A DNA stretch of 64,000 nucleotides from a virus. A program made the translations under genes and the position numbers. Below the pieces are notes generated by a model that was given only the letters and a program-made list of their open reading frames with translations, did not search any database and had not been told where the DNA came from. The DNA is taken from IMG/VR virus record IMGVR_UViG_3300047319_000185, positions 48,631 through 112,630 of that record; one strand, 5' to 3'. This document shows positions 17,009 to 29,691 of the stretch, one piece after another; within the stretch, counting starts at the first letter, position 1, and the number at the start of each line of letters is the position of its first letter.

Positions 17009-17410
17009 CTACTTCTTTGGTACCAGCAACTCCACCAAAGCTATTCCCAGAGGGATCATAACCATAGAGACCAGCCATCTGAACTGTGATTTCTTGGCGT
17101 CAATGTATTCCTTGATAGATCTGTTACGTTCGTCTGTCTCTCTTGTAAGAGCAGTCTGTACTTCGTGTTTTAGTGTGGCAAAGGACTCACGCAGTTCTCT
17201 GTGAATAGTTTGCAGATCTGTTTCGTTGTCGTCAATCTTTTCAGACAAATTGGCGAACTTCAGATCATCAACTCTTCTATCAGCGTGATATTCGGTTAAG
17301 GTCAGTAGCTTGTCCAGGCGGTTGGAGAAGTCGTTGAATCGAGTTTGCACGCCATCAAGCTCTCTCGTAACCGCCCCGGACCAAGCTTGTGGTTCTGGCT
17401 GTGTAGTCAT
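17009..17410 (-). CDS. Coiled-coil protein with C-terminal transmembrane helix
   Basis: WLVSMVMIPLGIALVELLV tail. Confidence 0.65.
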   Translation of the reverse strand: MTTQPEPQAWSGAVTRELDGVQTRFNDFSNRLDKLLTLTEYHADRRVDDLKFANLSEKIDDNETDLQTIHRELRESFATLKHEVQTALTRETDERNRSIKEYIDAKKSQFRWLVSMVMIPLGIALVELLVPKK

Positions 17411-17567: not shown

Positions 17568-18620
17568 TTACTCTGCTTCTGGGCGTACTAAATCCCATAC
17601 CTTATTGGCAATATCCTTGTTATCCAATAATGCGAACAAAAGACCTGCATTAGCGCTGTCCTTCACATAAAGAGCAAACTCCTTACGCGTGGCAACCCCT
17701 TGAAAGTAAAGCTCTACCGCATGAAACTCTGCACTGATTGTAGTATAGGTATCCCAATAGGCATCAAAGATTACCTGGTAAGTAGAGCGTAACCACTCAT
17801 GCCATTCATCAGGAACGATACTGCATAGTTCCTCTAAGGTCTTGCCTTCCTTCATATTCTCCCAGATCCGACGCTTTGTCAAACCTGTCACGATCTTGTG
17901 TAAAAGTACATAGTCCTCTTGCTTCAGCTTGATCCTGTAGTCCAGATCGGGGAAGTAGATTACGTAGCCTTCTGCATTAGGCCTAGGAACGGCTTCTATG
18001 GCCTCTCTGAGCGTCTTGTAGGGGAAGGTAGTAGTCTTGGGACCATACCACTCTTCTACGTCCTTAGCGGGGCGTACAGAGCCTGTTATGGCGTTACGTG
18101 CAGCCAAGAGGACCAAGTCTTCCTGATCCCCATAATTCAGAACGATACGGTTACCTGGATAGATGATCTCTACCAGATAGGTCTCCTCATGCCACAGATC
18201 AAGCTTGTAACCCTTGTGTGCAGTATTCAAAAACTTGGTTGCCCATATTGCCTGATCTGAAACAAAGGAACCACGAGTAGCTACATACCAATTATTATGG
18301 TACTCAAAGATGATACCTAATGAACCGTCCATCTTGTCGGTTACTTCAACTCGGTAGCTATCCAGTAGACAGTGGTCATCAGTCTCTTGTCCGTAATTCA
18401 GGAACTTGTCAAAAGGTCGGGCAATAACATTCAACTTATCATCAATAATGAGACCACGACACTGTCTGGTTACTTTATTCCACTCGTTGTCAAACTGAGC
18501 CTTCTCTGTATAGTTCACGATACTAAGAGGTAAAGTGGGGTGCTTATTAACCCTAATATACTTGTCAATTAGCATCTTCCGATAGAGACTCATCGGCATC
18601 AATCCTGAAAGCTTCGTCAT
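17568..18620 (-). CDS. RNA ligase (T4 Rnl1 family)
   Basis: CRGLI..ARPFDKF, motif I KMDGS, motif IV EGYV, motif V KLK. Confidence 0.9.
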   Translation of the reverse strand: MTKLSGLMPMSLYRKMLIDKYIRVNKHPTLPLSIVNYTEKAQFDNEWNKVTRQCRGLIIDDKLNVIARPFDKFLNYGQETDDHCLLDSYRVEVTDKMDGSLGIIFEYHNNWYVATRGSFVSDQAIWATKFLNTAHKGYKLDLWHEETYLVEIIYPGNRIVLNYGDQEDLVLLAARNAITGSVRPAKDVEEWYGPKTTTFPYKTLREAIEAVPRPNAEGYVIYFPDLDYRIKLKQEDYVLLHKIVTGLTKRRIWENMKEGKTLEELCSIVPDEWHEWLRSTYQVIFDAYWDTYTTISAEFHAVELYFQGVATRKEFALYVKDSANAGLLFALLDNKDIANKVWDLVRPEAE

Positions 18621-18970: not shown

Positions 18971-18976
18971 GTGGAG

Positions 18977-19060
18977 TGGATGCCGAGGGACTTGAACCCC
19001 CAGAGTCCGAAGACGATCGGGTTACAGCCGATGGCGCTGCCAATTACGCTTTAGACATCC
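18977..19060 (-). tRNA. tRNA-Tyr(GTA)
   Basis: Cloverleaf with long variable arm; loop CT-GTA-AC. Confidence 0.9.
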
Positions 19061-19164
19061 ATTGGTACCCGAGCCAGTCCCTGTCCTTCCTCATTATATA
19101 GAGGCGACTAGGGCATCGAATACATTCTCTACGAGGTGGATTTTTATTTACGTAGGACCTTTTG

Positions 19165-19238
19165 TCCAGCCGACGGGATTCGAACCCGCGTCACTCGGGT
19201 CACAGCCAAGTATGATAACCAACTACACTACGGCGGGG
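19165..19238 (-). tRNA. tRNA-His(GTG)
   Basis: Cloverleaf; loop CT-GTG-AC. Confidence 0.85.
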
Positions 19239-19251
19239 ATTATTTACAACG

Positions 19252-19323
19252 TACGAGTACCAAGAGTTGAACTTGGGACTAGATTTTATCAGAATCTCGT
19301 GATAACCGTTTCACCACACTCGC
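19252..19323 (-). tRNA. tRNA-Ile(GAT)
   Basis: Cloverleaf; loop CT-GAT-AA. Confidence 0.9.
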
Positions 19324-19324
19324 A

Positions 19325-19633
19325 TTATTCAAGACCAGATATGATTTCCTTTATGAATGCCTTAGGCTTAGCACCTACGACATACTTAATGATACTGCCC
19401 TTGTGGAACAAAAGCATAGTGGGTATAGATGAGATATCGTATCTCTTTGTCAGTTCTGGATTCTCATCCGCATTGACCTTTACTACATCTAGCCAGTCGT
19501 TCTCTTCTGCTATTGATTCTAGCACAGGAGCCATCATCTTGCAAGGGTTGCACCAGGTGGCCCAGAACTCTACAAAAACTGGCTTCTCAGATTCAAGTAC
19601 CTCTGAGAATGTATCAGTAGTAATATCTCTCAC
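19325..19633 (-). CDS. trxA: Thioredoxin
   Basis: FWATWCNPCK active site and ISSIPT. Confidence 0.93.
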   Translation of the reverse strand: MRDITTDTFSEVLESEKPVFVEFWATWCNPCKMMAPVLESIAEENDWLDVVKVNADENPELTKRYDISSIPTMLLFHKGSIIKYVVGAKPKAFIKEIISGLE

Positions 19634-19657
19634 TATTCCCTCTTTCTTTTATTCACG

Positions 19658-19732
19658 TATCCCAGGCAGGGCTCGAACCTGCATATCTCCTGTATATAAG
19701 ACAGGGGCCGTCACCAATTTGGCTACTGGGAC
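19658..19732 (-). tRNA. tRNA-Ile(TAT)
   Basis: Cloverleaf; CCTGT-CT-TAT-AT-ACAGG. Confidence 0.85.
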
Positions 19733-19822
19733 ATTACATGCATTTAGTTGGCAGCCATTTCCCACTACAGGCGGTACTGTGTTGCTATCCCTTAGCCAAC
19801 GGGGTTATGCATGAACCATACG

Positions 19823-19905
19823 TGGAAGATAAAGGAATCGAACCCTCAGGCTTTCACACCTGGCACGGTTTTCAAGGCCGTTTCGCACCCTGTGCGCTAT
19901 CTTCC
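19823..19905 (-). tRNA. tRNA-Ser(TGA)
   Basis: Long variable arm; loop CT-TGA-AA. Confidence 0.88.
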
Positions 19906-19917
19906 GTTATTGGATAG

Positions 19918-20014
19918 CTGATAAAACACTAGGGGAATCGAACCCCAGACTCTATCCGTAGTCCCCAGGACAACATTCCTGGCGCTGGTGCCTCCAGCTT
20001 TAGCTTAATATCAG
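19918..20014 (-). ncRNA. Non-canonical tRNA-like RNA
   Basis: Four arms including a perfect GGGG-TTCGATT-CCCC T-arm; 6-nt anticodon-position loop and interrupted closing stem. Confidence 0.6.
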
Positions 20015-20017
20015 GAG

Positions 20018-20104
20018 CGGAAGATAGGAGATTCGAACTCCTGAGGGGATGGATACCCTGCTGCCTTTCCAAGACAGTGCACTAGACCGCTATGCGAATC
20101 TTCC
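20018..20104 (-). tRNA. tRNA-Ser(GGA)
   Basis: Long variable arm; loop TT-GGA-AA. Confidence 0.9.
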
Positions 20105-20107
20105 AAG

Positions 20108-20187
20108 CGGAAGGCAGAGTACTCGAAACTCCAGCCGTTAAACTGAACGGATTAGCAATCCGTCTGCCCACCTCGGGCTTACCTTCC
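20108..20187 (-). tRNA. tRNA-Ser(GCT)
   Basis: Long variable arm; loop TT-GCT-AA. Confidence 0.88.
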
Positions 20188-20191
20188 AGAG

Positions 20192-20266
20192 AGCGTATAG
20201 GGAGAGTCGAACTCCTAAGTAGCAGTTTTGCAGACTGCCCCCGCGCCCTGCGAGTTAACTCTACGC
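20192..20266 (-). tRNA. tRNA-Cys(GCA), atypical acceptor/D junction
   Basis: GCAGT-CT-GCA-AA-ACTGC; T-arm present. Confidence 0.75.
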
Positions 20267-20269
20267 GCA

Positions 20270-20443
20270 TTAATCAATAATCACAACTTCACTGTAGCTA
20301 AGACGATATGTCTTAATCTTATCCCCATCCATCTTGGCAGTACACCAAGTTGACTCACTTCGGATAATTCTGCCTTCTTTACCGAATGCGTTACTACGAG
20401 GGTTCGTAACCTTGATCCTAGTACCTTCTTTGTTCTTACCCAC
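20270..20443 (-). CDS. KOW/SH3-like micro-protein (57 aa)
   Basis: Manually read; GGAGG RBS; GTRIKVTNPRSNAFGKEGRII. Confidence 0.55.
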   Translation of the reverse strand: MGKNKEGTRIKVTNPRSNAFGKEGRIIRSESTWCTAKMDGDKIKTYRLSYSEVVIID

Positions 20444-20458
20444 AGTTTGCCTCCGTGT

Positions 20459-20602
20459 TTAAAGAAACTCTACTTCGGACTTCTTGTAGTAAAGCGTATC
20501 CTTGCCTATCTTAACAAGAACTTGGTCATCCAGCAAATGGACAACTACGCCTCTCTTGCCCGCATTCTTACCCACAAGAATAAGGACATGTCTGTCAGCC
20601 AC
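20459..20602 (-). CDS. KOW-motif micro-protein (47 aa)
   Basis: Manually read; AAGGAG RBS; HVLILVGKNAGKRGVVV. Confidence 0.65.
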   Translation of the reverse strand: MADRHVLILVGKNAGKRGVVVHLLDDQVLVKIGKDTLYYKKSEVEFL

Positions 20603-20624
20603 TATATTTCTCCTTGTTTGAAAG

Positions 20625-20703
20625 TGGAGATAGGGGGAGTCGAACCCCCGCTCCTAGCTATTCCGCGTGCGGTTTCAAAGCTAGTCGAATCCAGATAATC
20701 CCC
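20625..20703 (-). ncRNA. Minimal tmRNA-like RNA (tRNA-like domain only)
   Basis: 5' GGGGATTATCTGGATTCGAC, G3:U70 pair, P2a CTAGCT/AGCTAG, T-arm, ATCTCCA 3' end; no tag ORF. Confidence 0.8.
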
Positions 20704-20784
20704 ATAAATGCACAGGCACCAAGCCTCTGTGCTCCCAGGTCCACGAATAACATAACCATCTCCTAAGAGACCCTGGCCCTTACG

Positions 20785-20855
20785 TACCCAATGACGGAGC
20801 TGCCCCGCCTACTGCTCTTTGTAAGAGAGCTATGATCCTGTTTCACCAATCGGGC
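20785..20855 (-). tRNA. tRNA-Val(TAC), non-canonical T-loop
   Basis: GCTCT-CT-TAC-AA-AGAGC; T-loop GGCAGCT. Confidence 0.8.
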
Positions 20856-20888
20856 AAACACCCTTTCGGGCGATATTACTACTATATC

Positions 20889-21095
20889 TTAAAACAACTT
20901 AGTTGGAGTAAACATATCAGCAGGAAGAGTTTCAGACTTCACATGGTTTCCTGCCCAGGTAATATCTACTACTAGGTTACCATGGTCGTCTATATACTCG
21001 TCACTATTTGCATGAGCCTTACTATTACGTGGACCCCACAGAGAATCTCCTGCTTGAATCTCGTTGCGTTTCTTTCCGAACAAGAATCCCATCAT
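20889..21095 (-). CDS. Hypothetical protein
   Basis: AGGAGG RBS just after tRNA-Arg. Confidence 0.6.
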   Translation of the reverse strand: MMGFLFGKKRNEIQAGDSLWGPRNSKAHANSDEYIDDHGNLVVDITWAGNHVKSETLPADMFTPTKLF

Positions 21096-21110
21096 TGCCT
21101 CCTTTTGGCG

Positions 21111-21183
21111 TGCGCCTGGAGGGACTCGAACCCCCAACCTAACGGGTAGAAACCGTTTGCTCTATCCTTTGAGCTACAGGCGC
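21111..21183 (-). tRNA. tRNA-Arg(TCT)
   Basis: Canonical cloverleaf; loop TT-TCT-AC. Confidence 0.93.
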
Positions 21184-21206
21184 AGTGCCCTTTCGGGCGG
21201 TACTAC

Positions 21207-21677
21207 CTAATCCCACCAACCGTACCAAACATACTTGGAGTCAGTGTAGATGTCAATCTCATCCCAGTCCAAATCGCTGATCAGAGCTGTGTGAAGCTGT
21301 TGCTTAACCTTACCGCGAACTGCACTGTTGGTCAAGCGCTTGTAACTCTTGTGACTGTTCCAGTTTTCTGGGTAGTACTGAAGGTATGTGTAGCAGTTCT
21401 TGTCAGCAAGCTTACCCTCATTAGTATCCGGGCGAGGATAACGAAGACGCCAACTGGAAGGAGTTGTTTCAGGTACTTCAAGAGTACACTCTACAGTCTC
21501 ACTCCAACGACGGTACAAGGGTCTGATACGGGTAGTTCCCTTAGCCCAGTAGGGTTCGTACTCCTCTTCCCCGATCTGTTCCTTGAGAACTACGTTGTGG
21601 TTGTGTGTGACCCTTACAGGCCCTCTGGGATCATTGTTCTGAACCCATGTAGGACGAGTATTATAAGTGCGAGACAT
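21207..21677 (-). CDS. Basic hypothetical protein (MSRT... type)
   Basis: GGAGG RBS; 156 aa. Confidence 0.65.
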   Translation of the reverse strand: MSRTYNTRPTWVQNNDPRGPVRVTHNHNVVLKEQIGEEEYEPYWAKGTTRIRPLYRRWSETVECTLEVPETTPSSWRLRYPRPDTNEGKLADKNCYTYLQYYPENWNSHKSYKRLTNSAVRGKVKQQLHTALISDLDWDEIDIYTDSKYVWYGWWD

Positions 21678-21785
21678 ACCAACCTCCGATAGTGCTAGAA
21701 GTTAAGCCAGTATATCGTTACTGACGGAACGTCGATGTCCACCATTTTGTGGGGAGAAATAGTCATCGAATTTATGCAACTCCCG

Positions 21786-21857
21786 TACGGCTAGAGGGAT
21801 TCGAACCCCCGACAACGGCTTCGTAGGCCGGTATGTTATCCTCTACACCATAGCCGT
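21786..21857 (-). tRNA. tRNA-Arg(ACG)
   Basis: Cloverleaf; loop CT-ACG-AA. Confidence 0.9.
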
Positions 21858-22280
21858 AGGACCAGTCCACCAGCCAAACTGCTCAAAGGTTTTTATCCTA
21901 TGGCATTTTACGCACAGTACCTGGCATTTATCTATCTCAGCTTGAACAACCGTAATCTTAGAGGTGTGTTTAGCTGCATCACTAATGTTAAACAATTTGG
22001 TAGAAGGATCAAGATGATCAAACTCTAGCACACGTGGGTCAATTTCTCCACATTGTACACAAGGATTATTAAGTAGGTATCTCCAGATGTATTCTCGCAT
22101 GATCTGTAGATATTTTAGATCATTCTTCCTAGCCTTGTCAATGTAGTATTGCTTATTAGACGTATAGTGCTCCCTGTTGTATTGATTGTGGCAGGGCTTA
22201 CACATTGAACTTCTAGAAGCAAACTCACTTAAGGACTTTTCTATGTTGCACTTTCTGCATGTCTTCATGCTATTAATCAT
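21843..22280 (-). CDS. HNH endonuclease
   Basis: KTCRKC..K...EF, CVQCG, LEFDH, KCQVLCVKCHRIKT. Confidence 0.88.
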   Translation of the reverse strand: MINSMKTCRKCNIEKSLSEFASRSSMCKPCHNQYNREHYTSNKQYYIDKARKNDLKYLQIMREYIWRYLLNNPCVQCGEIDPRVLEFDHLDPSTKLFNISDAAKHTSKITVVQAEIDKCQVLCVKCHRIKTFEQFGWWTGPTAMV

Positions 22281-22295
22281 AGCATAGGTTCGTAG

Positions 22296-22808
22296 CTACT
22301 TCTTCAATCCTAGCAGATACTTTCTCAACTTACCAGGTGTAACCAGGTATGGTTCCCTGTCTGTCAAAGTATAACCCACTTCATCATAGTCCTCAGAAAC
22401 TAGCTGAGAACAGATAAGGTGCTTTGAATCAAGGACTCTCTTGGTAACTCCTGGAGCCTTGATGTGAAAACGATACATCGAAATCGCCAGGTAGTCAAGG
22501 AAGCTGTACTTTACTCCTACTTGCCCGACTGCTCTGTTAACTATAGTAGTACGCTGGTCATCTGTCAACTGAACCAGACCTGTTGACCAGAGGATACTGC
22601 GTCCATCATACTCACTCAGTTGGGATATACAAGCCCCACCAGGTTCAGCCTCTACGATCTGACCGTTACCGATATAGATAAAGGCATGTTCATAGTTGGA
22701 GAACCCATCTCCATTCAACCACTGTCCGAAGCGTATTAACGCTCCTACACCACCAGCAATGGATACAAGTCCGAAGTCTCCTGGTAACGGAGTTACACTA
22801 TCAATCAT
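22296..22808 (-). CDS. Permuted papain-like NlpC/P60 (YiiX/YebB family) hydrolase
   Basis: PGD..YEHAFIY..IVEA with a C-terminal ICSQLV catalytic Cys. Confidence 0.8.
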   Translation of the reverse strand: MIDSVTPLPGDFGLVSIAGGVGALIRFGQWLNGDGFSNYEHAFIYIGNGQIVEAEPGGACISQLSEYDGRSILWSTGLVQLTDDQRTTIVNRAVGQVGVKYSFLDYLAISMYRFHIKAPGVTKRVLDSKHLICSQLVSEDYDEVGYTLTDREPYLVTPGKLRKYLLGLKK

Positions 22809-22938
22809 CACACTTCTCCACATGAACTCTCAAAGCCACATTAGCATCATGCTCAGTGGGAAATGGACCTTCTACATGCTTACGTTTGTCACTACACTGA
22901 TGGGAGTATGCCCAACCTCTATTAGCCTTATATACCAT
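22801..22938 (-). CDS. Small hypothetical protein
   Basis: AAGGAG RBS; MVYKANRG... Confidence 0.5.
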   Translation of the reverse strand: MVYKANRGWAYSHQCSDKRKHVEGPFPTEHDANVALRVHVEKCDD

Positions 22939-22958
22939 TTTATTCTCCTTATTATACG

Positions 22959-23030
22959 TACCCCCCGTGGGAATCGAACCCACTACTCGACGTTTAAAAG
23001 ACGCCTTGTCAACCGGAGACACTGAGGGGC
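22959..23030 (-). tRNA. tRNA-Lys(TTT)
   Basis: Loop CT-TTT-AA; T-arm present. Confidence 0.85.
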
Positions 23031-23057
23031 ATAAGGCCATTTCTGGCCCGTTTTACT

Positions 23058-23354
23058 TTAATCAATCTGCCAGCTAGTCTGACAGTCAGCGCAAGTACCA
23101 TAATGGCCTCTAGCGCCACGAGAGACCGGTAGAATAGTTCCAAGACCACCAATAATCTTGCCTGTGAAAAGATTGGTGTTATGGTCTCCACGTCTATCTC
23201 TTGGACAGTCAACAAGTTCCCCTGTTGACCCACCAGGAGAATTCCTGGTAAGATTACGCTTTTCCTGACCATTCTTCTTGTAGTAACGCGCAGCATGGTC
23301 ATTAACATCAAACGGCTTACGAGGTTCTGGCTCTTTCTTACCAAACAAACTCAC
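23058..23354 (-). CDS. Hypothetical protein, possible Zn ribbon
   Basis: CP...H and CADC motifs. Confidence 0.55.
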   Translation of the reverse strand: MSLFGKKEPEPRKPFDVNDHAARYYKKNGQEKRNLTRNSPGGSTGELVDCPRDRRGDHNTNLFTGKIIGGLGTILPVSRGARGHYGTCADCQTSWQID

Positions 23355-23649
23355 GATGCAGGATTTCCCTTCTTATCAGTAAGCTGCCATGCACAGCCGC
23401 AGTCGTTACAGGTCATATACGTACCCTTGTCTCCACGAGATGTACAGAGAAGTGGGTATACCTTTGTTCCATCAGACTGCTGCTTATAACCACAAGTTAT
23501 CATACCTGTGAAGAGATGGGTATTATGGTCTCGTTTGCCACTAGGACAAGGAGGACTGGAATTGAATACCGATCCACCCTTATATACAAACGCCTTAATG
23601 GTATCACCTAGAAAACTGATAGTTTGCCTCCTATAGTTTTTATATAACG

Positions 23650-23722
23650 AGCCTTATCAGGGAGTCGAACCCTGTCTCTCTCCGTACCAAGGAGAAGTGC
23701 TAACCATAGTCACTAATAAGGC
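23650..23722 (-). tRNA. tRNA-Thr(GGT)
   Basis: Loop TT-GGT-AC. Confidence 0.9.
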
Positions 23723-23833
23723 ATAACAGATTGAGTCTCTAGAGTTCCGTTTAACGGTGCCCTCTCTCTGCTTTCTTGTATGAAATCCAGCCCTGTGCTC
23801 CGGACGCTCTTTGCCCTTCATTCATACAATACG

Positions 23834-23904
23834 TACTCCGCCAGGGACTCGAACCCTGATCCCCAGATTAAGAGTCTGGTGCATCACCTTAATGCTTGCA
23901 GAGC
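23834..23904 (-). tRNA. tRNA-Lys(CTT)
   Basis: Loop CT-CTT-AA. Confidence 0.9.
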
Positions 23905-24030
23905 ATGTGAGTAGTTCTCGTAACACTACACCGTAGACGTTTACTGAAGCCGATATCTATGGTTCATGTTAATTATTGGACTCAAAGTCTTCAGTTACCG
24001 GAAATCCGTGACTCCTACTCAAAGCCATTG

Positions 24031-24102
24031 TGGAGCTACGGGGATTCGAACCCCGAATTCCTGCTTGCAAAACAGGCGTGTTGCCACTAACACTATAGCC
24101 CC
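24031..24102 (-). tRNA. tRNA-Ala(TGC)
   Basis: GGGGCTA/TAGCTCC acceptor; loop TT-TGC-AA. Confidence 0.93.
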
Positions 24103-24246
24103 AATGTGCCGTAAGGAGACCCCACTATCTCTGCGTGAGGTCACCAGGATGAGCCTTAGCCGAGAGATATTACGCATATCTCATCCCAGTAGGTTCCCTT
24201 ACTTGCGCGCCTTACCCTTAGCGTTTGCGCTTCCCTGATGTAGTCT

Positions 24247-24275
24247 AGCTTAGCAGATCAGGCTCTAAGAGTCAA
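24247..24275 (-). promoter_or_regulatory. Internal promoter of the RNA array
   Basis: TTGACT-17-TAAGCT. Confidence 0.6.
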
Positions 24276-24700
24276 TCTCGCCAGACCCAGCCAGATCGGT
24301 GTACTTCAGCATCACGTTCATGCTTCTCGATCTCATCTGCTGGAATTACCAGAATGTCATCCTGTAGCAGATACTGCTCCAACGTAGTATACGTATAGGT
24401 ATAGCTTCCGAATATGCGTGCAGATTCGATATACTCGTTACCTTCATAGCCGCACCCACGCTCATAAGCAGTAGCTTCTCTCAAGGAGTCGCTTTGAGTA
24501 ATGGAATAGTCTTCACCACAGCAAGAACACGTTACGTTATTCGGGTCATGGCCAAAACGGCTGTAGAAGACAGAGGTAGCTTGATTCTCTGGAGCCTCAA
24601 TGTAGATGTACTGATATGGAGACTCCTTGGTTCCACCACCAGAATGCATATCCATAAACTGTGTCCACACCATATTGCCTCCTATATCGTGGTACGTCAT
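24272..24700 (-). CDS. Hypothetical protein
   Basis: FMDMHSGG..YIEA..CSCCG phage family pattern. Confidence 0.65.
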   Translation of the reverse strand: MTYHDIGGNMVWTQFMDMHSGGGTKESPYQYIYIEAPENQATSVFYSRFGHDPNNVTCSCCGEDYSITQSDSLREATAYERGCGYEGNEYIESARIFGSYTYTYTTLEQYLLQDDILVIPADEIEKHERDAEVHRSGWVWRD

Positions 24701-24705
24701 TAGGT

Positions 24706-24750
24706 AAAAATAAACTCCACCAGTATTTCTACGGTGGAGAGGATTAAGTT
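24706..24750 (-). terminator. Intrinsic terminator
   Basis: CTCCACC/GGTGGAG followed by TTTATTTTT. Confidence 0.65.
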
Positions 24751-24760
24751 AATGATAGAT

Positions 24761-24832
24761 CGTAGCATACCGGACTCGAACCGGTGCGACGGACCAGTAA
24801 CGATCCGTACTCTACCTCTGAGTTAATACTAC
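24761..24832 (-). ncRNA. tRNA-like RNA with aberrant 8-nt anticodon loop
   Basis: Intact acceptor, D and T arms; loop CGTTACTG. Confidence 0.7.
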
Positions 24833-24863
24833 GAGACTGAATTGACTGTCTCGACCTATCAAG

Positions 24864-24939
24864 CTCTCACGACTGGAATCGAACCAGTAGGGGGACGGTT
24901 TAACAGACCGTTGCAACTGCCAATAGCTGCCCCGTGAGA
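24864..24939 (-). tRNA. tRNA-Asn(GTT)
   Basis: Loop CT-GTT-AA. Confidence 0.9.
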
Positions 24940-24983
24940 ATAAACCCTAACCACAAGGGGAAGGGTGTGTTATCAGCTCAACA

Positions 24984-25012
24984 AGAGTATCAGGTACCTC
25001 TTCTCTCGTCAA
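24984..25012 (-). promoter_or_regulatory. Internal promoter
   Basis: TTGACG-17-TACTCT. Confidence 0.6.
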
Positions 25013-25016
25013 GCAG

Positions 25017-25084
25017 CAGGGTATGTAGGGATTGAACCTACCAAGAAAGCTTTTGGAGAGCGATCTCCTCCCAGAGGATACCCT
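25017..25084 (-). tRNA. tRNA-Trp(CCA), short D-arm
   Basis: AGGGTAT/ATACCCT acceptor; loop CT-CCA-AA. Confidence 0.75.
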
Positions 25085-25131
25085 ATCGCGGTTCCGTTGT
25101 GTAATCGGACAACGGTTTCCTAAAACCTGCG

Positions 25132-25215
25132 TAGCCCTTATCGGATTCGAACCGATACGTCACAAGGACACTGGTTCCTAAGACCAGCGCGTCTGCCAGA
25201 TTCCGCCAAAAGGCC
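25132..25215 (-). tRNA. tRNA-Leu(TAG)
   Basis: Long variable arm; loop CT-TAG-GA. Confidence 0.92.
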
Positions 25216-25220
25216 ATACG

Positions 25221-25646
25221 TTAGCTTATTAAGTTATGGACATAATGAGAAGCTTCATAGTCTGAAGCAGAGGCATTATGTATTCCGCCATGTCCTCTAT
25301 GATGCTTACTGCACAAGAACATGAAGTTCTCGTCAGATTCTACCCAAGCCCCGATTTCATCAGGATTTGAGATACCGGGAAAGTCTCTTTCAAGGTAGGT
25401 TAAGTCTACACCCTGCTGCATACTGAATTCAACATGTGCGTGGTGAAGTTCTAGTCCTCCGACACATTCTGCTGTATCCCCGCCACGTCTCAGCGCGAAA
25501 TCACAAACTGCTGTGTCTACATGAGTCTTGCGGTAATGGTTAAAATCCTTGTAATGCGGATCATCTGTACGAGCTGGGTGAGCAGGAAACGCTACAGTGT
25601 AGTGCTTAGTCTCTGCTTGACTGTGTGCGTTTACTATCTTACCCAT
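25221..25646 (-). CDS. HNH-like His-rich protein
   Basis: LELHH...N...LCSKHHRGHGGIH. Confidence 0.6.
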   Translation of the reverse strand: MGKIVNAHSQAETKHYTVAFPAHPARTDDPHYKDFNHYRKTHVDTAVCDFALRRGGDTAECVGGLELHHAHVEFSMQQGVDLTYLERDFPGISNPDEIGAWVESDENFMFLCSKHHRGHGGIHNASASDYEASHYVHNLIS

Positions 25647-25666
25647 GTTGCTCCTTGTATGTCAAG

Positions 25667-25739
25667 TAGTCCTTGTCGGATTCGAACCGACACTGCGCAG
25701 GACTTAAATCTGCTGCCTCTACCATTGGGCTAAAGGACC
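25667..25739 (-). tRNA. tRNA-Leu(TAA), short variable loop
   Basis: Loop TT-TAA-GT. Confidence 0.88.
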
Positions 25740-25837
25740 ATTCGCACAATCCATCTTTTCAGGGTTCAGGCTTTGTGCTGTGCTAAGTCGGGCTGCCCCT
25801 CCATTGCCCTGACTGTGGCTTGCGTTACTTAGCAGTG

Positions 25838-25910
25838 TACTCCAGGTCGGATTCGAACCGACAACTCTTCGTTTTTGAGACGAAGTCCTCTACCATTGGG
25901 ATACTGGAGC
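25838..25910 (-). tRNA. tRNA-Leu(CAA), short variable loop
   Basis: Loop CT-CAA-AA. Confidence 0.9.
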
Positions 25911-26100
25911 ATAAGTGACGATTCCGGATTAGCATCCGGGAGCCACTACACAGGTCTTTAGCTTTTAGTCGGTTCAATGCTGTACAAGTAGTGTACCCCG
26001 GAAGTACCTTTGTTGTAAAGCTGTCCGTGCCAGGAGTTACTGTGCAGAACCTAAAGATGGGTTTGGTAACTTATTAGTCCCATCCAACCCATCTAGTTGC

Positions 26101-26190
26101 TTACTTTTGCTCAGTTGCCTTGTACAACTTTACTAAAGCTGTTACAAATAACACAACTGCTGTCGCCTGGTTAAGCTGCTTTGTGGTCAT
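26101..26190 (-). CDS. 29-aa hydrophobic peptide
   Basis: GAAAGGAG RBS; MTTKQLNQATAVVLFVTALVKLYKATEQK. Confidence 0.55.
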   Translation of the reverse strand: MTTKQLNQATAVVLFVTALVKLYKATEQK

Positions 26191-26211
26191 GAAGCATACT
26201 CCTTTCGTTAT

Positions 26212-26742
26212 CTAGTAGGATATACCTGCTGCGTAACGAAGTCTACGAGCATGTCTTCCTTTCCCTTTGTTCTTACTTTTGTAAGTATCTAGTTGACTGT
26301 CACAGTTAGGACAGACAAGACGAAGATTGCTCCGCCAATTATTTTCTGAATTACCGTCAATATGGTCTAACACGAAGACTATAGGAAGTTCATTCCACAT
26401 AGTTCCATTTAAGCAGATACAGCATTTACTATGCTGCTCAGCAAGGATATATAGACGTATTGGATCATTCTGACTAGTACCTGGAGCTACTGAACCCTCT
26501 GCCAACCACTGATCTAACCTAGTTTTAACTCTATGCGCATTTGCACAGCTAGTAGAGCAATATTTTACTTGGATGTCATTTAACTCTTTAGTACAGTAAA
26601 AACAGCTATCGTAACGAATTTTAGTACCTAAAATCTGATTTCTTCTCACGCCTTGATTATTAACTGTTGCTGCACAAGAACGTGAACAAAATTTAGGATT
26701 TTTAGTTTGGTTTAAACATGATGGATTCTTACAAGTATTCAT
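26212..26742 (-). CDS. HNH endonuclease
   Basis: FCSRSC Zn fingers; LDHIDGN..N..SNLRLVCPNC. Confidence 0.9.
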   Translation of the reverse strand: MNTCKNPSCLNQTKNPKFCSRSCAATVNNQGVRRNQILGTKIRYDSCFYCTKELNDIQVKYCSTSCANAHRVKTRLDQWLAEGSVAPGTSQNDPIRLYILAEQHSKCCICLNGTMWNELPIVFVLDHIDGNSENNWRSNLRLVCPNCDSQLDTYKSKNKGKGRHARRLRYAAGISY

Positions 26743-26770
26743 AGTGTAAGCATACCATATTCGAACCTAG

Positions 26771-26844
26771 AGCCGGTAGGGGGAATCGAACCCAACCTAA
26801 ATCCGCTTTACAAGAGCGGTGCATCGCCATTATGCTTTACCGGC
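26771..26844 (-). tRNA. tRNA-Thr(TGT)
   Basis: Loop CT-TGT-AA. Confidence 0.9.
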
Positions 26845-26851
26845 AAGTGCT

Positions 26852-26881
26852 ACTATATCAGGTTAGTAGCCAACCTGTCAA
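26852..26881 (-). promoter_or_regulatory. Internal promoter
   Basis: TTGACA-18-TATAGT. Confidence 0.65.
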
Positions 26882-26916
26882 ACAACAGCGGAAGGAGGAA
26901 CACTGTTGTCTAACTA

Positions 26917-27204
26917 TTAGGAAGTTCCGGAAGCCGTAACAACCCAGTCTGTGATTGCATTAAGAGTAAAGTCAATAGGCTTTGCAAAAGCGTTTCCGCT
27001 TAGGTACACAGTCCAAAGACCATCTGTTCCACCAGCGCCAGGAGCTACAGGAGCCTGAACAACAGATGTAACTGTTGGATAGCCAAGACCAGTAGCTGGA
27101 ACAGGCTGCACGTAGCAGTGACCGTCAGCAGCAGCTACGAAAGCAACAGCGGTTCCGACAGTCAGAGCATTTACTCTAGTTGGTGCGTTATAAGTGATTG
27201 CCAT
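26917..27204 (-). CDS. Ala/Thr-rich hypothetical protein (possibly virion)
   Basis: GAAAGG RBS; composition resembles structural proteins. Confidence 0.6.
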   Translation of the reverse strand: MAITYNAPTRVNALTVGTAVAFVAAADGHCYVQPVPATGLGYPTVTSVVQAPVAPGAGGTDGLWTVYLSGNAFAKPIDFTLNAITDWVVTASGTS

Positions 27205-27286
27205 TTTTGAGCCTTTCATGAAAGAACTATATTTAGTTCGCTATAGCCCTATTATCGTATCATGAAAGGTCATTTAATTCTTAACG

Positions 27287-27358
27287 TACCCCCGGAGGGA
27301 ATTGAACCCTCTCTTCAGGCTTGAAAGGCCAGTGTACTAACCAATATACTACGGGGAC
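27287..27358 (-). tRNA. tRNA-Glu(TTC)
   Basis: Loop CT-TTC-AA. Confidence 0.9.
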
Positions 27359-27595
27359 AAAAACCCTACCAGTCCCGGAGAACGGTAGGGAACAATCTCG
27401 GCAAGGGAACAGTAGTGCCTGCTTCGAATCAGGGACTGTTGGTGCCTTGCTGAGTATAAATAGTCCTTAGGGTTACCCATCCCTTAACTACACTGAATGG
27501 TTGATCACAGGCAGCTTATCTCATTTCAGCTAGCGAGACCGGATGTGGCTTCAGCTCATCCCGCAATCTCTTGAGACCTGTGAGGGTAACAAACG

Positions 27596-27669
27596 TACTC
27601 CGTACGGGGCTCGAACCCGTAATCTCTTCCTTGAGAGGGAAGTGACTTAACCACTTTGTCCAACGGAGC
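27596..27669 (-). tRNA. tRNA-Glu(CTC)
   Basis: Loop CT-CTC-AA. Confidence 0.92.
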
Positions 27670-27672
27670 ATA

Positions 27673-27825
27673 TTACTTATTTCTTAGACTGTCTACTACT
27701 TTGCGCTGATCCCTGATCTTTGTGGTCAAGGCCTGTCGTTGTGCACTCTGCTTCACAGTACGCAATTCTTGCATCATCTCATGAAGTTTGTCAAGTGCGT
27801 CCTTGTATTCCTGACTGAAGCCCAT
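27673..27825 (-). CDS. Small coiled-coil protein (50 aa)
   Basis: Manually read MGFSQEYKD...; GAGGAG RBS. Confidence 0.55.
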   Translation of the reverse strand: MGFSQEYKDALDKLHEMMQELRTVKQSAQRQALTTKIRDQRKVVDSLRNK

Positions 27826-27826
27826 A

Positions 27827-27985
27827 TTACTTGTGTCTCCTCAGAAGTTCAGTATTGATCTGATCGATTTCTCGTTCAATGAACTTCTTACGTTGTTTTG
27901 ACAGTCCACCCTGCTTGATGATGTCCTGTCTTAGTTTTAGATAGCCTTTTAACTGTTCACTTGTTTTAGACTCTAAGTGTTCCAT
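27827..27985 (-). CDS. Small helical protein (52 aa)
   Basis: Manually read MEHLESK...; ATG abuts the tRNA-Asp 3' end. Confidence 0.5.
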   Translation of the reverse strand: MEHLESKTSEQLKGYLKLRQDIIKQGGLSKQRKKFIEREIDQINTELLRRHK

Positions 27986-27986
27986 G

Positions 27987-28058
27987 CGCCCACGACGGTA
28001 TTCGAAACCGCCCTTGCAGCTTGACAGGCTACCGTGCTAACCACTACACTACGCGAGC
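27987..28058 (-). tRNA. tRNA-Asp(GTC)
   Basis: Loop CT-GTC-AA. Confidence 0.9.
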
Positions 28059-28083
28059 AAAGTTGCTTTCGCAACCGATTAAG

Positions 28084-28392
28084 TTATTCTGGCCAGCTAA
28101 TATTGGGATACTGCTCAACTGCTGTGCCATCTCGTACTATTACCCTTGACATGTCTGGAGATTCTTCTCCATGTCTCAGGACTATCAAGAAGTTGTTAGG
28201 ATAAGCATATGCTAACTGCTGTAGGTCTGTCAACCAGTCATACCACTTAGCACAGTCATATCCGCTTACTTGGCCCTCATAATCTTCCCAACCAGGAGAT
28301 CCCCAGCCATACTGCTTATCAGCGTTGTTGAGAACATCCTTGATATCAGGAATATCTGTATCTACTACTTCGAAAGTAGAGTAATAACCCAT
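28084..28392 (-). CDS. Hypothetical protein
   Basis: MGYYSTF..KWYD..YP..GEE phage family pattern; GGAGG RBS. Confidence 0.65.
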   Translation of the reverse strand: MGYYSTFEVVDTDIPDIKDVLNNADKQYGWGSPGWEDYEGQVSGYDCAKWYDWLTDLQQLAYAYPNNFLIVLRHGEESPDMSRVIVRDGTAVEQYPNISWPE

Positions 28393-28416
28393 AGTTGCCT
28401 CCATAGATTGTAAAAG

Positions 28417-28487
28417 CTCCCCCACCAGGGCTCGAACCTAGACTCCGAGAGCCAAAGGCTCGTGTGCTGCCATTACACTAAAGGGGA
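28417..28487 (-). tRNA. tRNA-Gln(TTG)
   Basis: Loop CT-TTG-GC. Confidence 0.88.
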
Positions 28488-28491
28488 AAAG

Positions 28492-28562
28492 CTCTCCAAC
28501 CTGGATTCGAACCAAGTCCAGCGAATTCAGAGTCCGCGATGCTGCCGTTACACCATTGGAGA
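28492..28562 (-). tRNA. tRNA-Gln(CTG)
   Basis: Loop CT-CTG-AA. Confidence 0.92.
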
Positions 28563-28637
28563 ATAAGAGGGTCGCGTATTGGGACAATTCAAACCCAAGA
28601 ACCAATACCACCTACTCTAGGCGGGAAACCCAGCAAG

Positions 28638-28710
28638 TACCGTATAGGAGACTCGAACTCCTTCGTTCACTTTGGAAGAGTGACATGCTGCCATTGAACA
28701 TCAATACGGC
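28638..28710 (-). tRNA. tRNA-Gly(TCC)
   Basis: Loop CT-TCC-AA. Confidence 0.9.
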
Positions 28711-28723
28711 ATTATTTAATTGT

Positions 28724-28800
28724 TGGTGGCGGAGCTTCGGAATCGCACCGAATTAACCCAGCTTATGAGACTGGTCGAGATAACTAACCTCCCGCCCGCA
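28724..28800 (-). tRNA. tRNA-Met(CAT), possibly initiator-like, encoded CCA
   Basis: Loop CT-CAT-AA; 1:72 mismatch; ends ACCA. Confidence 0.78.
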
Positions 28801-28801
28801 G

Positions 28802-28872
28802 TAGCTGATGACAGAATTGAACTGTCGTTGACGGCTTATGAAACCGTTGTTCTGCCATTGAACTAATCAGCC
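28802..28872 (-). tRNA. tRNA-Met/Ile2(CAT)
   Basis: Loop TT-CAT-AA. Confidence 0.88.
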
Positions 28873-29020
28873 ATCGGCTTATTCAGCCATAAAACTTATA
28901 CTGAGGAGCCGAACTGCGCTACCTCAATCTTCTTACCATCAATAAGCTTCTCTACCTTAGCAGAGGCCTTAACGGTATTCAAAGGCTTACGCATATCGTC
29001 TCCTTCTAGTTGTTGTAAAG

Positions 29021-29093
29021 TGTCCCCGACCGGGTTCGAACCGATGACCTGCGCAGCTTCAATGCGCCGCTCTACCAACTGAGCTACAGGGAC
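29021..29093 (-). tRNA. tRNA-Phe(GAA)
   Basis: Loop TT-GAA-GC. Confidence 0.92.
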
Positions 29094-29159
29094 AAACGAG
29101 TTACTTACTTGTATTTAGCATCGTATCTATTATGTGATTTGGTGATGTCTATACGTTGA

Positions 29160-29495
29160 TCATAACTCTAGTTTGCGTATGTGCGTTCGTGTCGCATGAC
29201 AGTTTGCACATACAAGATCACATTTAGCAACTTCTTCAAGAAGCGCCTTGATAGTACTTATCTTACCTGTTTCGGACACATTGACAAGTTTAATCTCGTC
29301 AGGTCGGTGATCGAACTGCATTACCCAATAAGGATATGCTACAGAGCAATCTAAACAGGGTTGCATATCCTTTAGCTCAAGAGTGATTCTGCGCATCTCA
29401 AGCTTTAAAGCTCTAGACCTTGCATAATACTTCTCTTTGTTAGCTTGGTAATGCTTCTTAGTGTACTCGCGTTGTTTTTCTTTAGAAAGTGTCAT
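29160..29495 (-). CDS. HNH endonuclease
   Basis: PCLDC..YPYWVMQFDH..KCDLVCANCHATRT. Confidence 0.88.
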   Translation of the reverse strand: MTLSKEKQREYTKKHYQANKEKYYARSRALKLEMRRITLELKDMQPCLDCSVAYPYWVMQFDHRPDEIKLVNVSETGKISTIKALLEEVAKCDLVCANCHATRTHIRKLEL

Positions 29496-29533
29496 ACTTC
29501 ATTGTATCAAATCTTTGTTAGAGATTTGAACCG

Positions 29534-29607
29534 TCTAGATGGCAGGATTTGAACCTGCGACCGCCCGAATCCAAGTCGGGTACGCTACCAAACTGCGCTA
29601 CATCTAG
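29534..29607 (-). tRNA. tRNA-Pro(TGG)
   Basis: Loop CT-TGG-AT. Confidence 0.9.
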
Positions 29608-29619
29608 ATTAATACTACG

Positions 29620-29691
29620 TCGGGCACCCGAGAATCGAACTCGGTTTATCCTGTTCCCAAAACAGGCGGATTACCATCTTCCTCGTGCCCG
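29620..29691 (-). tRNA. tRNA-Pro(TGG), second copy
   Basis: Loop TT-TGG-GA. Confidence 0.9.

What the first reader, a model, noticed from the sequence alone, without database searches (positions are those of the whole stretch)
20625..20703. A 79-nt tmRNA with no mRNA domain: candidate SmpB decoy or tag-free ribosome-rescue RNA
Seen (minus strand): GGGGATTATCTGGATTCGAC-TAGCTTTGAAACCGCACGCGGAATAGCTAG-GAGC-GGGGGTTCGACTCCCCC-TATCTCCA. It has the tmRNA hallmarks: unpaired D-loop ending GGATTCGAC, G3:U70 alanine identity with discriminator A, P2a helix, short linker and T-arm. P2 is capped by a tiny hairpin, so all pseudoknots and the tag reading frame are missing. Established: this domain is what binds SmpB, AlaRS and EF-Tu, and tmRNAs lacking the mRNA domain are known from some mitochondria. 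Inference: the phage either sequesters SmpB to block tagging and degradation of its proteins, or rescues stalled ribosomes without tagging. This is the best candidate for an undescribed system in this window.
Basis: partly seen in the sequence, partly recalled or inferred. Interest (0 to 1): 0.88.

Follow-up and report, generated by a model that had tools for sequence, protein, structure and literature searches.

The report
Phage mini-tmRNA without a tag message
This soil Streptomyces-type phage carries a real, conserved 79-base gene that copies only the alanine-accepting, tRNA-like end of the bacterial ribosome-rescue RNA (tmRNA). This type was already reported for mycobacteriophage DS6A, and it probably interferes with the host's rescue-and-tagging system.

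Summary
Window 20625-20703 (minus strand) scores 54.8 bits against Rfam tmRNA (cut-off 47), with 302 of the 374 model positions replaced by 9 bases. It is not an assembly artefact: an independent metagenome contig reproduces it exactly. All five cultured relatives (Streptomyces phages BRock, Alone3, GiJojo, LuckySocke, pSt2308) carry a copy. In the three whose annotation I read it lies at the same place, between tRNA-Val and tRNA-Ser, and is unannotated or called a protein gene.

More than 45 distinct versions occur in uncultured viral contigs. Across 31 distinct aligned sequences, 95% of cells in the stems pair, against 66% in shuffles. G1-C, G2-C, G3·U70 and discriminator A never change, which argues that charging with alanine is under selection.

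It is not an undescribed system. A "TLD only" tmRNA was reported for mycobacteriophage DS6A (Mao 2009; Hudson 2014; 2025 tmRNA database paper). Those papers also report inhibition of E. coli tmRNA and propose SmpB titration. The window copy shares DS6A's architecture and its cap motif. This scan has also reached the same conclusion on other DNA.

My reading is a chargeable SmpB-binding competitor of host tmRNA (about 0.6). Productive tag-free rescue is the main rival. It is a new member of a known kind. The lineage-wide conservation and the sequence-conserved cap are new details.

The parts
20625..20703 (-). Gene for a 79-nt TLD-only (tag-less) tmRNA, from 5' G1 to discriminator A79
   Evidence: RF00023 scores 54.8 bits against a cut-off of 47. 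My own model R1, built without this sequence, scores 57.6 bits, while tRNAs score 30 bits or less. An independent contig is identical.
20697..20703 (-). Acceptor stem 5' strand GGGGAUU. It pairs with 20626-20632 (UAUCUCC). G3·U70 is the alanine identity pair.
   Evidence: Read from the sequence. G1-C, G2-C and G3·U are invariant in 31 of 31 distinct family members, while pairs 4-7 covary.
20687..20696 (-). Unpaired D-loop analogue AUCUGGAUUC (tmRNA-type, with no D stem)
   Evidence: Aligned to the tmRNA consensus ucuGGaUUC at high posterior probability.
20654..20686 (-). P2 arm. It consists of GA plus C-G and 5 further pairs (P2a), the purine-rich internal loop UUGAAA/AAU, and a 3-bp hairpin with tetraloop CACG (20663-20672) that replaces the whole mRNA-like domain.
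   Evidence: MFE fold. P2a covaries across the family: 5 of 6 pairs show changes on both sides. The cap motif GAAA-N-CCGCACGCGG recurs in DS6A, the BRock-like phages and 16 further minis.
20650..20653 (-). Linker GAGC (most relatives have GAC). Its G and A face the G and A of GAC, as in tmRNA.
   Evidence: Rfam alignment, GGA.C with one inserted g.
20633..20649 (-). T arm: 5-bp stem plus loop UUCGACU
   Evidence: In the T stem 100% of cells pair, and 4 of 5 pairs show changes on both sides.
18976..29691 (-). Same-strand array of 30 tRNA genes in which the mini-tmRNA sits. This is context: co-transcription and tRNA-type processing are inferred.
   Evidence: ARAGORN. No promoter-like or terminator-like site lies next to the mini. 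Gene order Arg-Arg-Val-mini-Ser-Ser-(Ser)-Ile-His is shared with LuckySocke, GiJojo and pSt2308; L044 shows Val-mini-Ser-Tyr-Ile-Ile-His-Tyr.

Best explanation
This is a functional phage gene for a TLD-only tmRNA of the DS6A type. It is the tRNA-like domain of tmRNA (acceptor stem, D-loop analogue, T arm, P2a), with P2 closed after a short P2b-like hairpin. It has no resume codon, no tag frame and no pseudoknots.

Inferred life cycle:
1. It is transcribed with the phage tRNA array and trimmed by the host tRNA-processing enzymes.
2. It receives CCA from the host enzyme and is charged with alanine by host AlaRS through G3·U70 and A73.
3. It binds host SmpB, and EF-Tu when charged.

Because it cannot supply a message, its net effect is to compete with host tmRNA for SmpB and for stalled ribosomes. 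This would lower SsrA tagging and tmRNA-dependent turnover during infection.

My odds: about 0.95 that it is a real, selected TLD-only tmRNA gene, and about 0.6 that its main effect is competitive inhibition of host trans-translation.
For: Identity:
- Rfam tmRNA scores above its cut-off and is the best match in the tRNA clan.
- Model R1, built from 8 other minis, scores the window copy 57.6 bits and DS6A 52.2 bits, against 30 bits or less for tRNAs.

Not an artefact:
- A 666-nt contig from another sample and study covers 20235-20900 with no difference and no gap. Two further runs cover most of the element. No joints or indels were found.

Selection:
- All five cultured relatives have a copy. 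Portal identity to the window phage is about 77% for the three listed (Alone3, GiJojo, BRock; six Streptomyces phages fall in the 60-80% band). They are BRock, Alone3, GiJojo, LuckySocke and pSt2308. In LuckySocke, GiJojo and pSt2308 it lies between tRNA-Val and tRNA-Ser. The related contig L044 has one too.
- Compensatory changes occur in the acceptor, P2a and T stems.
- Family-wide, 95.0% of cells pair against 66.3% in shuffles (0 of 500 shuffles reach the observed value). There are 176 cells changed on both sides against 54. Slid-partner controls give 38-53%.
- G3·U70, G1-C, G2-C and discriminator A are invariant while neighbouring pairs vary. This fits continued selection for alanylation.

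No partner of its own:
- No SmpB gene (PF01668) is found in the 112.6-kb genome, so any SmpB must be the host's.
- No protein family recurs beside the minis.

From the literature:
- DS6A's TLD-only form is reported, a similar molecule inhibits E. coli tmRNA, and SmpB titration is proposed (PMC4131195, PMC11915505).
- A truncated tmRNA consisting only of the TLD accepts the peptide on the ribosome in vitro (Shimizu and Ueda 2006, as cited in PMC3895274).
Against: - There is no expression, charging or SmpB-binding data for this RNA or for any BRock-like phage. No RNA run holds the stretch.
- The published inhibition was reported to work whether or not the molecule could be charged. A pure SmpB sponge therefore would not need G3·U70, yet G3·U70 is invariant. 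This hints at a role on the ribosome beyond titration.
- The Alone3 copy looks degenerate: the D-loop UUC is lost, there are U·U pairs in P2a and two mismatches in the T stem, and it scores 66 bits against 85-95. The RNA may therefore be dispensable in some hosts.
- The sequence-conserved cap is not explained by this model.
Confidence: 0.6

Rival explanations
1. Productive tag-free rescue. Ala-mini-tmRNA with SmpB and EF-Tu enters non-stop ribosomes and takes over the nascent chain. The complex is then resolved by drop-off and peptidyl-tRNA hydrolase, by ArfB-type release, or by repeated rounds that add alanines. Ribosomes are freed without marking phage proteins for degradation.
For: G3·U70, discriminator A and an EF-Tu-compatible 7+5 bp acceptor/T stack are strictly conserved. 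A sponge would not need these. A TLD-only tmRNA accepts the peptide in vitro (cited in PMC3895274). CDS-less tmRNAs persist together with SmpB in jakobid mitochondria and in some plastids (PMC11915505). The phage invests heavily in translation: 30 tRNAs, an Rnl1-type RNA ligase and a queuine tRNA-ribosyltransferase.
Against: No release step is known for peptidyl-TLD without a stop codon. The published E. coli experiment reports inhibition, not rescue. Sister Streptomyces phages of the BE cluster keep full-length tagged tmRNAs, so tagging as such is not avoided by all phages of this host.
Confidence: 0.22
2. A decoy or cofactor for something other than SmpB. Candidates are RNase R or another nuclease that recognises t(m)RNA shapes, a host defence protein that senses tRNA-like RNA, or an alanine donor for a non-ribosomal aminoacyl-transferase.
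For: The cap GAAA-N-CCGCACGCGG is conserved in sequence while every stem around it changes. This suggests a specific reader that is not obviously SmpB. t(m)RNA fragments bind RNase R in a phage anti-CRISPR context (PMC11662646).
Against: The elements that are most conserved are the D-loop GG-UUCGAC, the GA/AG junction and the T loop. These make up the tmRNA tRNA-like domain, which the literature describes as the SmpB-binding part. No candidate partner gene recurs next to the RNA.
Confidence: 0.1
3. A non-functional leftover: a full-length phage tmRNA that suffered an internal deletion and is decaying.
For: The 3' end and trailer (AUCUCCACUUUCAA) resemble those of the full-length tmRNA of BE-cluster phage Jay2Jay. 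The Alone3 copy is degraded.
Against: The same short architecture is kept across a phage genus with compensatory changes, and across more than 45 distinct sequences in unrelated viral contigs. A decaying remnant would lose pairing and G3·U70.
Confidence: 0.05
4. An assembly collapse, or an attP-type fragment of a host ssrA gene.
For: Many mobile elements integrate into ssrA and carry its 3' end (general knowledge).
Against: Independent contigs and five finished phage genomes show the same short form. Both the 5' and 3' halves are present in one fold. No tyrosine integrase is found in the genome. BRock is described as virulent (PMC7453282).
Confidence: 0.01

Closest known systems
'TLD only' / CDS-less tmRNA of Mycobacterium phage DS6A (tmRNA Website tmID 11587; JN698994 28478-28560)
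   Same: About 80 nt. It has a GGGG acceptor with G3·U70 and A73, an unpaired D-loop, a GAC...G-(G/C)AC junction, a 6-bp P2a, a GAAAA internal loop, the CCGCACGCGG cap and a T arm. It has an actinobacterial host. It scores with the same model (52.2 against 57.6 bits).
   Different: DS6A is a 60-kb temperate siphovirus. There the RNA stands alone between protein genes with no tRNAs nearby. Here it sits in a 30-tRNA array of a 113-kb BRock-like phage. The stems differ at most positions. The linker is GAGC here and CAC in DS6A.
Full-length phage tmRNAs (Streptomyces BE-cluster phages such as Jay2Jay; mycobacteriophage Bxz1 group)
   Same: Phage-borne, lying among tRNA genes, with the same TLD. 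The window copy shares its T arm, acceptor 3' strand and trailer with Jay2Jay at about 89% over 38 nt.
   Different: Those are about 280 nt or more and encode tags (ANSKFAFALAA, ANSNVASAYALAA). The window RNA has no message part.
CDS-less organellar tmRNAs (jakobid mitochondria, Rfam RF02544; Mallomonadaceae plastids)
   Same: The mRNA-like domain is lost while the alanine-accepting TLD is retained. They depend on an SmpB encoded elsewhere (PMC11915505).
   Different: They arose by reductive evolution of the organelle's own single tmRNA. This one is an extra copy brought in by a virus on top of the host's intact tmRNA.
Synthetic TLD constructs used for SmpB co-crystals and kinetics
   Same: The same design, with P2a closed by a small loop. 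Such RNA accepts the peptide on the ribosome (cited in PMC3895274). That it is also charged and binds SmpB and EF-Tu is my own knowledge of the Gutmann 2003 and Bessho 2007 structures.
   Different: Those are man-made. The natural family keeps an extra internal loop and a sequence-conserved cap.

Membership tests
tmRNA (Rfam RF00023) | Covariance-model score at or above the curated gathering score | tested here: met
   54.8 bits against 47. It is the best match among clan CL00001 families.
tmRNA (Rfam RF00023) | Alanine identity: G3·U70 in a 7-bp acceptor stem, with discriminator A73 | tested here: met
   Read from the sequence. Invariant in 31 of 31 distinct family members.
tmRNA (Rfam RF00023) | tRNA-like domain without a D stem (GGAUUCGAC), with a GA/AG junction and a T arm GGUUCGAnUCC | tested here: met
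   Rfam alignment with high posterior probabilities.
tmRNA (Rfam RF00023) | mRNA-like domain: resume codon, tag reading frame with a stop, and pseudoknots | tested here: not met
   302 model positions are replaced by 9 bases. ARAGORN finds no tmRNA or tag. It therefore cannot carry out full trans-translation.
tmRNA (Rfam RF00023) | Charged by AlaRS and bound by SmpB | not testable with these tools
   Needs biochemistry. No smpB gene is found in the phage, so a host protein would be used.
TLD-only (CDS-less) phage tmRNA, DS6A type | P2 closed directly by a short hairpin, total length about 63-85 nt, with the TLD intact | tested here: met
   79 nt (folds). The layout is the same as in DS6A.
TLD-only (CDS-less) phage tmRNA, DS6A type | Homology with DS6A and other minis, shown by a model that contained neither sequence | tested here: met
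   R1 was built from 8 other sequences. The window copy scores 57.6 bits, DS6A 52.2 bits and tRNAs 30 bits or less.
TLD-only (CDS-less) phage tmRNA, DS6A type | Inhibits host tmRNA function | not testable with these tools
   Reported for a similar molecule in E. coli (Mao 2009, via PMC4131195 and PMC11915505). The primary paper is not held.
tRNA-Ala | Cloverleaf with a D stem and an anticodon arm carrying an alanine anticodon | tested here: not met
   There is no D stem and no 7-nt anticodon loop, and ARAGORN makes no call. The phage has a separate normal tRNA-Ala(UGC) at 24030-24102.
Mitochondrial tmRNA (RF02544) | Best match to the mt-tmRNA model, in an organellar setting | tested here: not met
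   RF00023 wins the clan competition. The setting is a tailed phage with portal, terminase and major head genes.

The most novel reading that the evidence does not exclude
The mini-tmRNA is not a passive SmpB sponge. It is a charged, ribosome-acting RNA: the phage runs its own tag-free (or alanine-only) rescue of stalled ribosomes. The sequence-conserved GAAA-N-CCGCACGCGG cap would then be a docking site for a specific factor that resolves the peptidyl-RNA. The invariance of G3·U70 and the conserved cap are the two observations that the sponge model leaves unexplained.
Probability: 0.2. Interest if true: 0.75.

Novelty: new member of a known kind. Interest (0 to 1): 0.45.

Why it matters
Trans-translation is present in nearly all bacteria and is a drug target. 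A natural, virus-encoded RNA that copies only the SmpB- and AlaRS-binding end of tmRNA is a ready-made probe of that pathway.

The type is known from one phage (DS6A) and one set of E. coli experiments. This report adds four things:
- The RNA is a fixed feature of a whole group of culturable, virulent Streptomyces phages. It is unannotated in the three records whose annotation I read.
- It recurs in dozens of unrelated viral contigs, with strong covariation.
- The alanine identity pair is invariant, which questions the simple "titration only" idea.
- The cap of the truncated arm is conserved in sequence.

Because LuckySocke, GiJojo, Alone3 and BRock grow on laboratory Streptomyces strains, the function can be tested directly.

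Tried and rejected
- ARAGORN calls neither a tRNA nor a tmRNA here. It needs a tag frame.
- Megablast of 4 kb around the site against GenBank phages found nothing. Relatives were reached through blastn, tblastn and covariance models instead.
- The single-sequence fold z-score is not significant.
- I looked for a recurrent protein partner. All-against-all BLASTP of ORFs within 3 kb of 29 minis gave no family shared by more than two loci.
- An HMM of the small KOW-like ORFs downstream hit only the window, GiJojo and pSt2308. They are therefore not part of the family-wide unit.
- The ARAGORN 'tmRNA' call next to the L006 mini is spurious: the tag is not identified and the call overlaps coding sequence.
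- Mao et al. 2009 is not held. Its result is cited second-hand.
- No RNA holder is listed among the public runs, so nothing can be said about expression.
Only five of them reach the score range of viral minis: L210 76.6 bits, L301 62.1, L237 49.9, L305 47.0 and L236 41.5. Three of the five lie on MAG contigs under 7 kb. Many 27-37-bit hits on large chromosomal contigs were not resolved. Four actinobacterial pattern hits held no tmRNA at that spot.
The rest did not pass my mini filter and were not examined further.
- The cap motif is not present verbatim in four actinobacterial tmRNAs or in Jay2Jay's tmRNA.

Full report
**1.

Rfam's tmRNA model (RF00023) matches 20622-20703 at 54.8 bits against a gathering score of 47. 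The match runs end to end over the model, but 302 of the 374 positions are replaced by nine bases. ARAGORN finds 30 tRNA genes on the same strand between 18976 and 29691 but does not call this element.

The layout is as follows:
- A 7-bp acceptor stem with G3·U70 and one U·U at its base.
- A 10-nt unpaired D-loop analogue ending in GGAUUC.
- The GAC...GGA junction.
- A 6-bp P2a (a C-G pair plus five more).
- The internal loop UUGAAA/AAU.
- A 3-bp hairpin with tetraloop CACG.
- The linker GAGC.
- A 5-bp T arm with loop UUCGACU.
- Discriminator A.

CCA is not encoded. None of the array's ordinary tRNA genes encodes it either (one Met gene reads ACCA after its called end). The fold energy of the single sequence is not unusual (z = -0.98), so the case rests on comparative evidence.

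**2. It is not an artefact**

The window is part of a 112,630-bp IMG/VR virus record rated complete.
- Eighteen rhizosphere or soil DNA runs hold parts of the stretch.
- In a run from another sample and study, a 666-nt contig covers 20235-20900 with no difference and no gap.
- Two more runs cover 20631-21034 and 20638-21111 identically.
- No joint or indel is seen.
- A second IMG/VR contig (L050) carries the identical element.

**3. What the phage is, and what its relatives show**

Portal, terminase, major head and tail-fibre genes identify a tailed phage. The portal is about 77% identical to those of Streptomyces phages Alone3, GiJojo and BRock; six Streptomyces phages fall in the 60-80% identity band. 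The tail-fibre C-terminus also matches Streptomyces phages. BRock is published as a virulent 112.5-kb myovirus with 29 tRNAs, and the paper does not mention a tmRNA (PMC7453282).

All five cultured relatives carry a 77-78-nt mini-tmRNA (81 nt with the CCA positions):

| Phage | Position | Score |
|---|---|---|
| LuckySocke | 17977-18057 | 57.1 bits (RF00023) |
| GiJojo | 17025-17105 | 57.4 bits (RF00023) |
| pSt2308 | 33356-33436 | 61 bits (RF00023) |
| BRock | 97143-97220 | 84.8 bits (model R1) |
| Alone3 | 18155-18231 | 66.4 bits (model R1) |

In LuckySocke, GiJojo and pSt2308 it lies between tRNA-Val(UAC) and tRNA-Ser(GCU), as in the window. It is unannotated in LuckySocke and pSt2308. In GiJojo it is covered by a "hypothetical protein" CDS, gene 44. 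A 51.8-kb uncultured contig (L044) has it directly after tRNA-Val and before Ser, Tyr, Ile, Ile, His and Tyr genes.

Between these copies the acceptor stem, P2a and T stem differ by compensatory changes. For example, GGGGAUU/UAUCUCC, GGGAAUA/UAUUUCC, GGGUCUG/CAGAUCC and GGGUUUG/CAAAUCC all keep pairing. G3·U70 and the cap stay fixed. The Alone3 copy has lost the UUC of the D-loop and has mismatches in P2a and in the T stem, so it may be decaying.

**4. A wider family**

Pattern scans of IMG/VR looked for a tmRNA D-loop followed within 18-50 nt by a T arm. A filter for acceptor pairing was then applied. Together these gave 28 distinct minis of 63-85 nt.

Every one folds on its own into a P2a of 5-8 bp, each with a different sequence. 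I built a covariance model from eight of them, excluding both the window copy and DS6A (A4, R1). It separates minis (41-95 bits) from tRNAs (30 bits or less) in about 1.3 Mb of fetched DNA.

Results on the model-based alignment of 32 sequences, 31 of them distinct (A5):
- 95.0% of cells form standard pairs, against 66.3% in shuffles (0 of 500 shuffles reach the observed value).
- 176 cells are changed on both sides, against 54 in shuffles.
- Sliding the partners drops pairing to 38-53%.
- G1-C, G2-C, G3·U70 and the C-G of the GAC/GGA junction never vary, while acceptor pairs 4-7 vary freely.

The alignment was fitted to the model, which favours pairing. The independent single-sequence folds agree with it.

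Other features of the family:
- About a quarter of the minis lie next to tRNA genes. The rest stand alone.
- No protein family recurs beside them.
- Among the first 120 pattern hits in the genome collection of 185,579 prokaryote species, only five reach the viral score range. Three of those lie on MAG contigs under 7 kb. The family therefore appears to be essentially phage-borne.

**5. The cap**

The motif GAAA-(G/A)-CCGCACGCGG is shared by the window copy, the BRock-like phages, DS6A, L057 and L107. L044 and Alone3 have a CAUG loop instead. A scan for the motif found 16 further distinct minis whose stems all differ.

Four actinobacterial tmRNAs and the full-length tmRNA of Jay2Jay do not contain the motif verbatim. 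They do have a helix, a purine-rich internal loop and a second helix at the base of P2: GGGGAAGCG on the 5' side and GCACACGGAGAAGCCC on the 3' side. I infer that the minis are an actinobacterial-type tmRNA cut back to P2a, the internal loop and a stub of P2b closed by a tetraloop. Why the stub is conserved in sequence is unexplained.

**6. What is already known**

- Hudson, Lau and Williams 2014 list "Mycobacterium phage DS6A (TLD only)" among phages with ssrA. [quoted passage not shown] 2009 (PMC4131195).
- The 2025 tmRNA database paper repeats this. It adds CDS-less plastid tmRNAs of about 65 bp and the mitochondrial forms (PMC11915505).
- I located the DS6A copy at JN698994 28478-28560 (43.2 bits with RF00023). 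It has the same architecture as the window copy.
- Text searches for "mini-tmRNA", "phage tmRNA", "TLD-only" and the like found no paper that describes the family's breadth or its presence in Streptomyces phages.
- Earlier notes of this scan reached the same DS6A link on other DNA.

**7. Mechanism**

Shown here:
- An intact, selected tmRNA tRNA-like domain.
- No message part.
- No phage smpB gene.
- No integrase.

Inferred:
- Processing together with the tRNA array.
- CCA addition, alanylation, and binding of host SmpB and EF-Tu.

The best-supported outcome is competition with host tmRNA, which is the published result for a similar RNA. However, the invariance of G3·U70 and A73 suggests that the charged form matters. 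That points to action on the ribosome: either a dead-end block of tagging, or a productive tag-free rescue. Sister Streptomyces phages of the BE cluster instead carry full-length tmRNAs with tags. One of these shares the 3' end and trailer with the window copy, so the two forms are probably related by descent.

**8. Verdict**

It is not an undescribed system. Its value lies in three things: the tractable cultured relatives, the strength of the comparative evidence, and the two features the titration model leaves open (the invariant alanine identity and the conserved cap).

Noticed in passing
window 20785-20855 (-): A tRNA-Val(UAC) that ARAGORN misses. Rfam tRNA scores it 37.6 bits. Its T loop is non-canonical (GGCGG-GGCAGCU-CCGUC). 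It is 89% identical to an unannotated spot in Streptomyces phage Coruscant (84509-84581) and is syntenic with the annotated tRNA-Val(tac) of LuckySocke, GiJojo and pSt2308.
   Followed up: partly
window 20459-20602 (-) and 20270-20443 (-): Two small ORFs (47 and 57 aa) lie directly downstream of the mini-tmRNA. The first matches the Pfam KOW motif (27.7 bits, cut-off 22.3). Similar small ORFs follow the mini in GiJojo and pSt2308. None follows it in LuckySocke or L044, or beside any other mini, so this is a lineage-local neighbour and not a family-wide partner.
   Followed up: partly
window 24760-24833 (-): ARAGORN reports 'tRNA-???' with a two-base anticodon. Rfam tRNA scores it 45.3 bits. 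It is a tRNA-like RNA with an abnormal anticodon loop inside the array. The distantly related phage Coruscant encodes a Ro-like RNA-binding protein next to its tRNA array.
   Followed up: no
GenBank PP725410 (GiJojo) 17023-17265; OR725497 (LuckySocke) 17977-18057; PV588686 (pSt2308) 33356-33436; KX925554 (BRock) 97143-97220: The mini-tmRNA is mis-annotated as a protein gene in GiJojo (gene 44). It is not annotated in LuckySocke or pSt2308. The BRock paper does not mention a tmRNA.
   Followed up: yes
OR725492 (Alone3) 18155-18231, locus L320: This copy of the mini-tmRNA looks degenerate. The D-loop UUC is missing, there are two U·U pairs in P2a and two mismatches at the base of the T stem.
   Followed up: partly
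L007, L009, L010 and about 20 other contigs of IMG/VR sample 3300045988: A repeated element contains GGATTCGAC, a 59-nt span and a T arm, but has a non-tmRNA acceptor (…AAGGTATACT…/…TATCCAGTGC). R1 scores it only 23.7 bits. It is probably an odd tRNA of one phage group.
   Followed up: no
window 17568-18620 (-), 15804-16934 (-), 51258-52760 (-): An Rnl1-type RNA ligase (Pfam RNA_lig_T4_1), a metallophosphoesterase and a queuine tRNA-ribosyltransferase homologue. Together they form a tRNA repair and modification toolkit next to the tRNA array.
   Followed up: no
L305 1044-1137 (-), L236 5908-5994 (+): Longer (87-94 nt) mini-tmRNA-like sequences in bacterial MAG contigs score 41-47 bits with R1. 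They may be long-P2 variants of the family.
   Followed up: no
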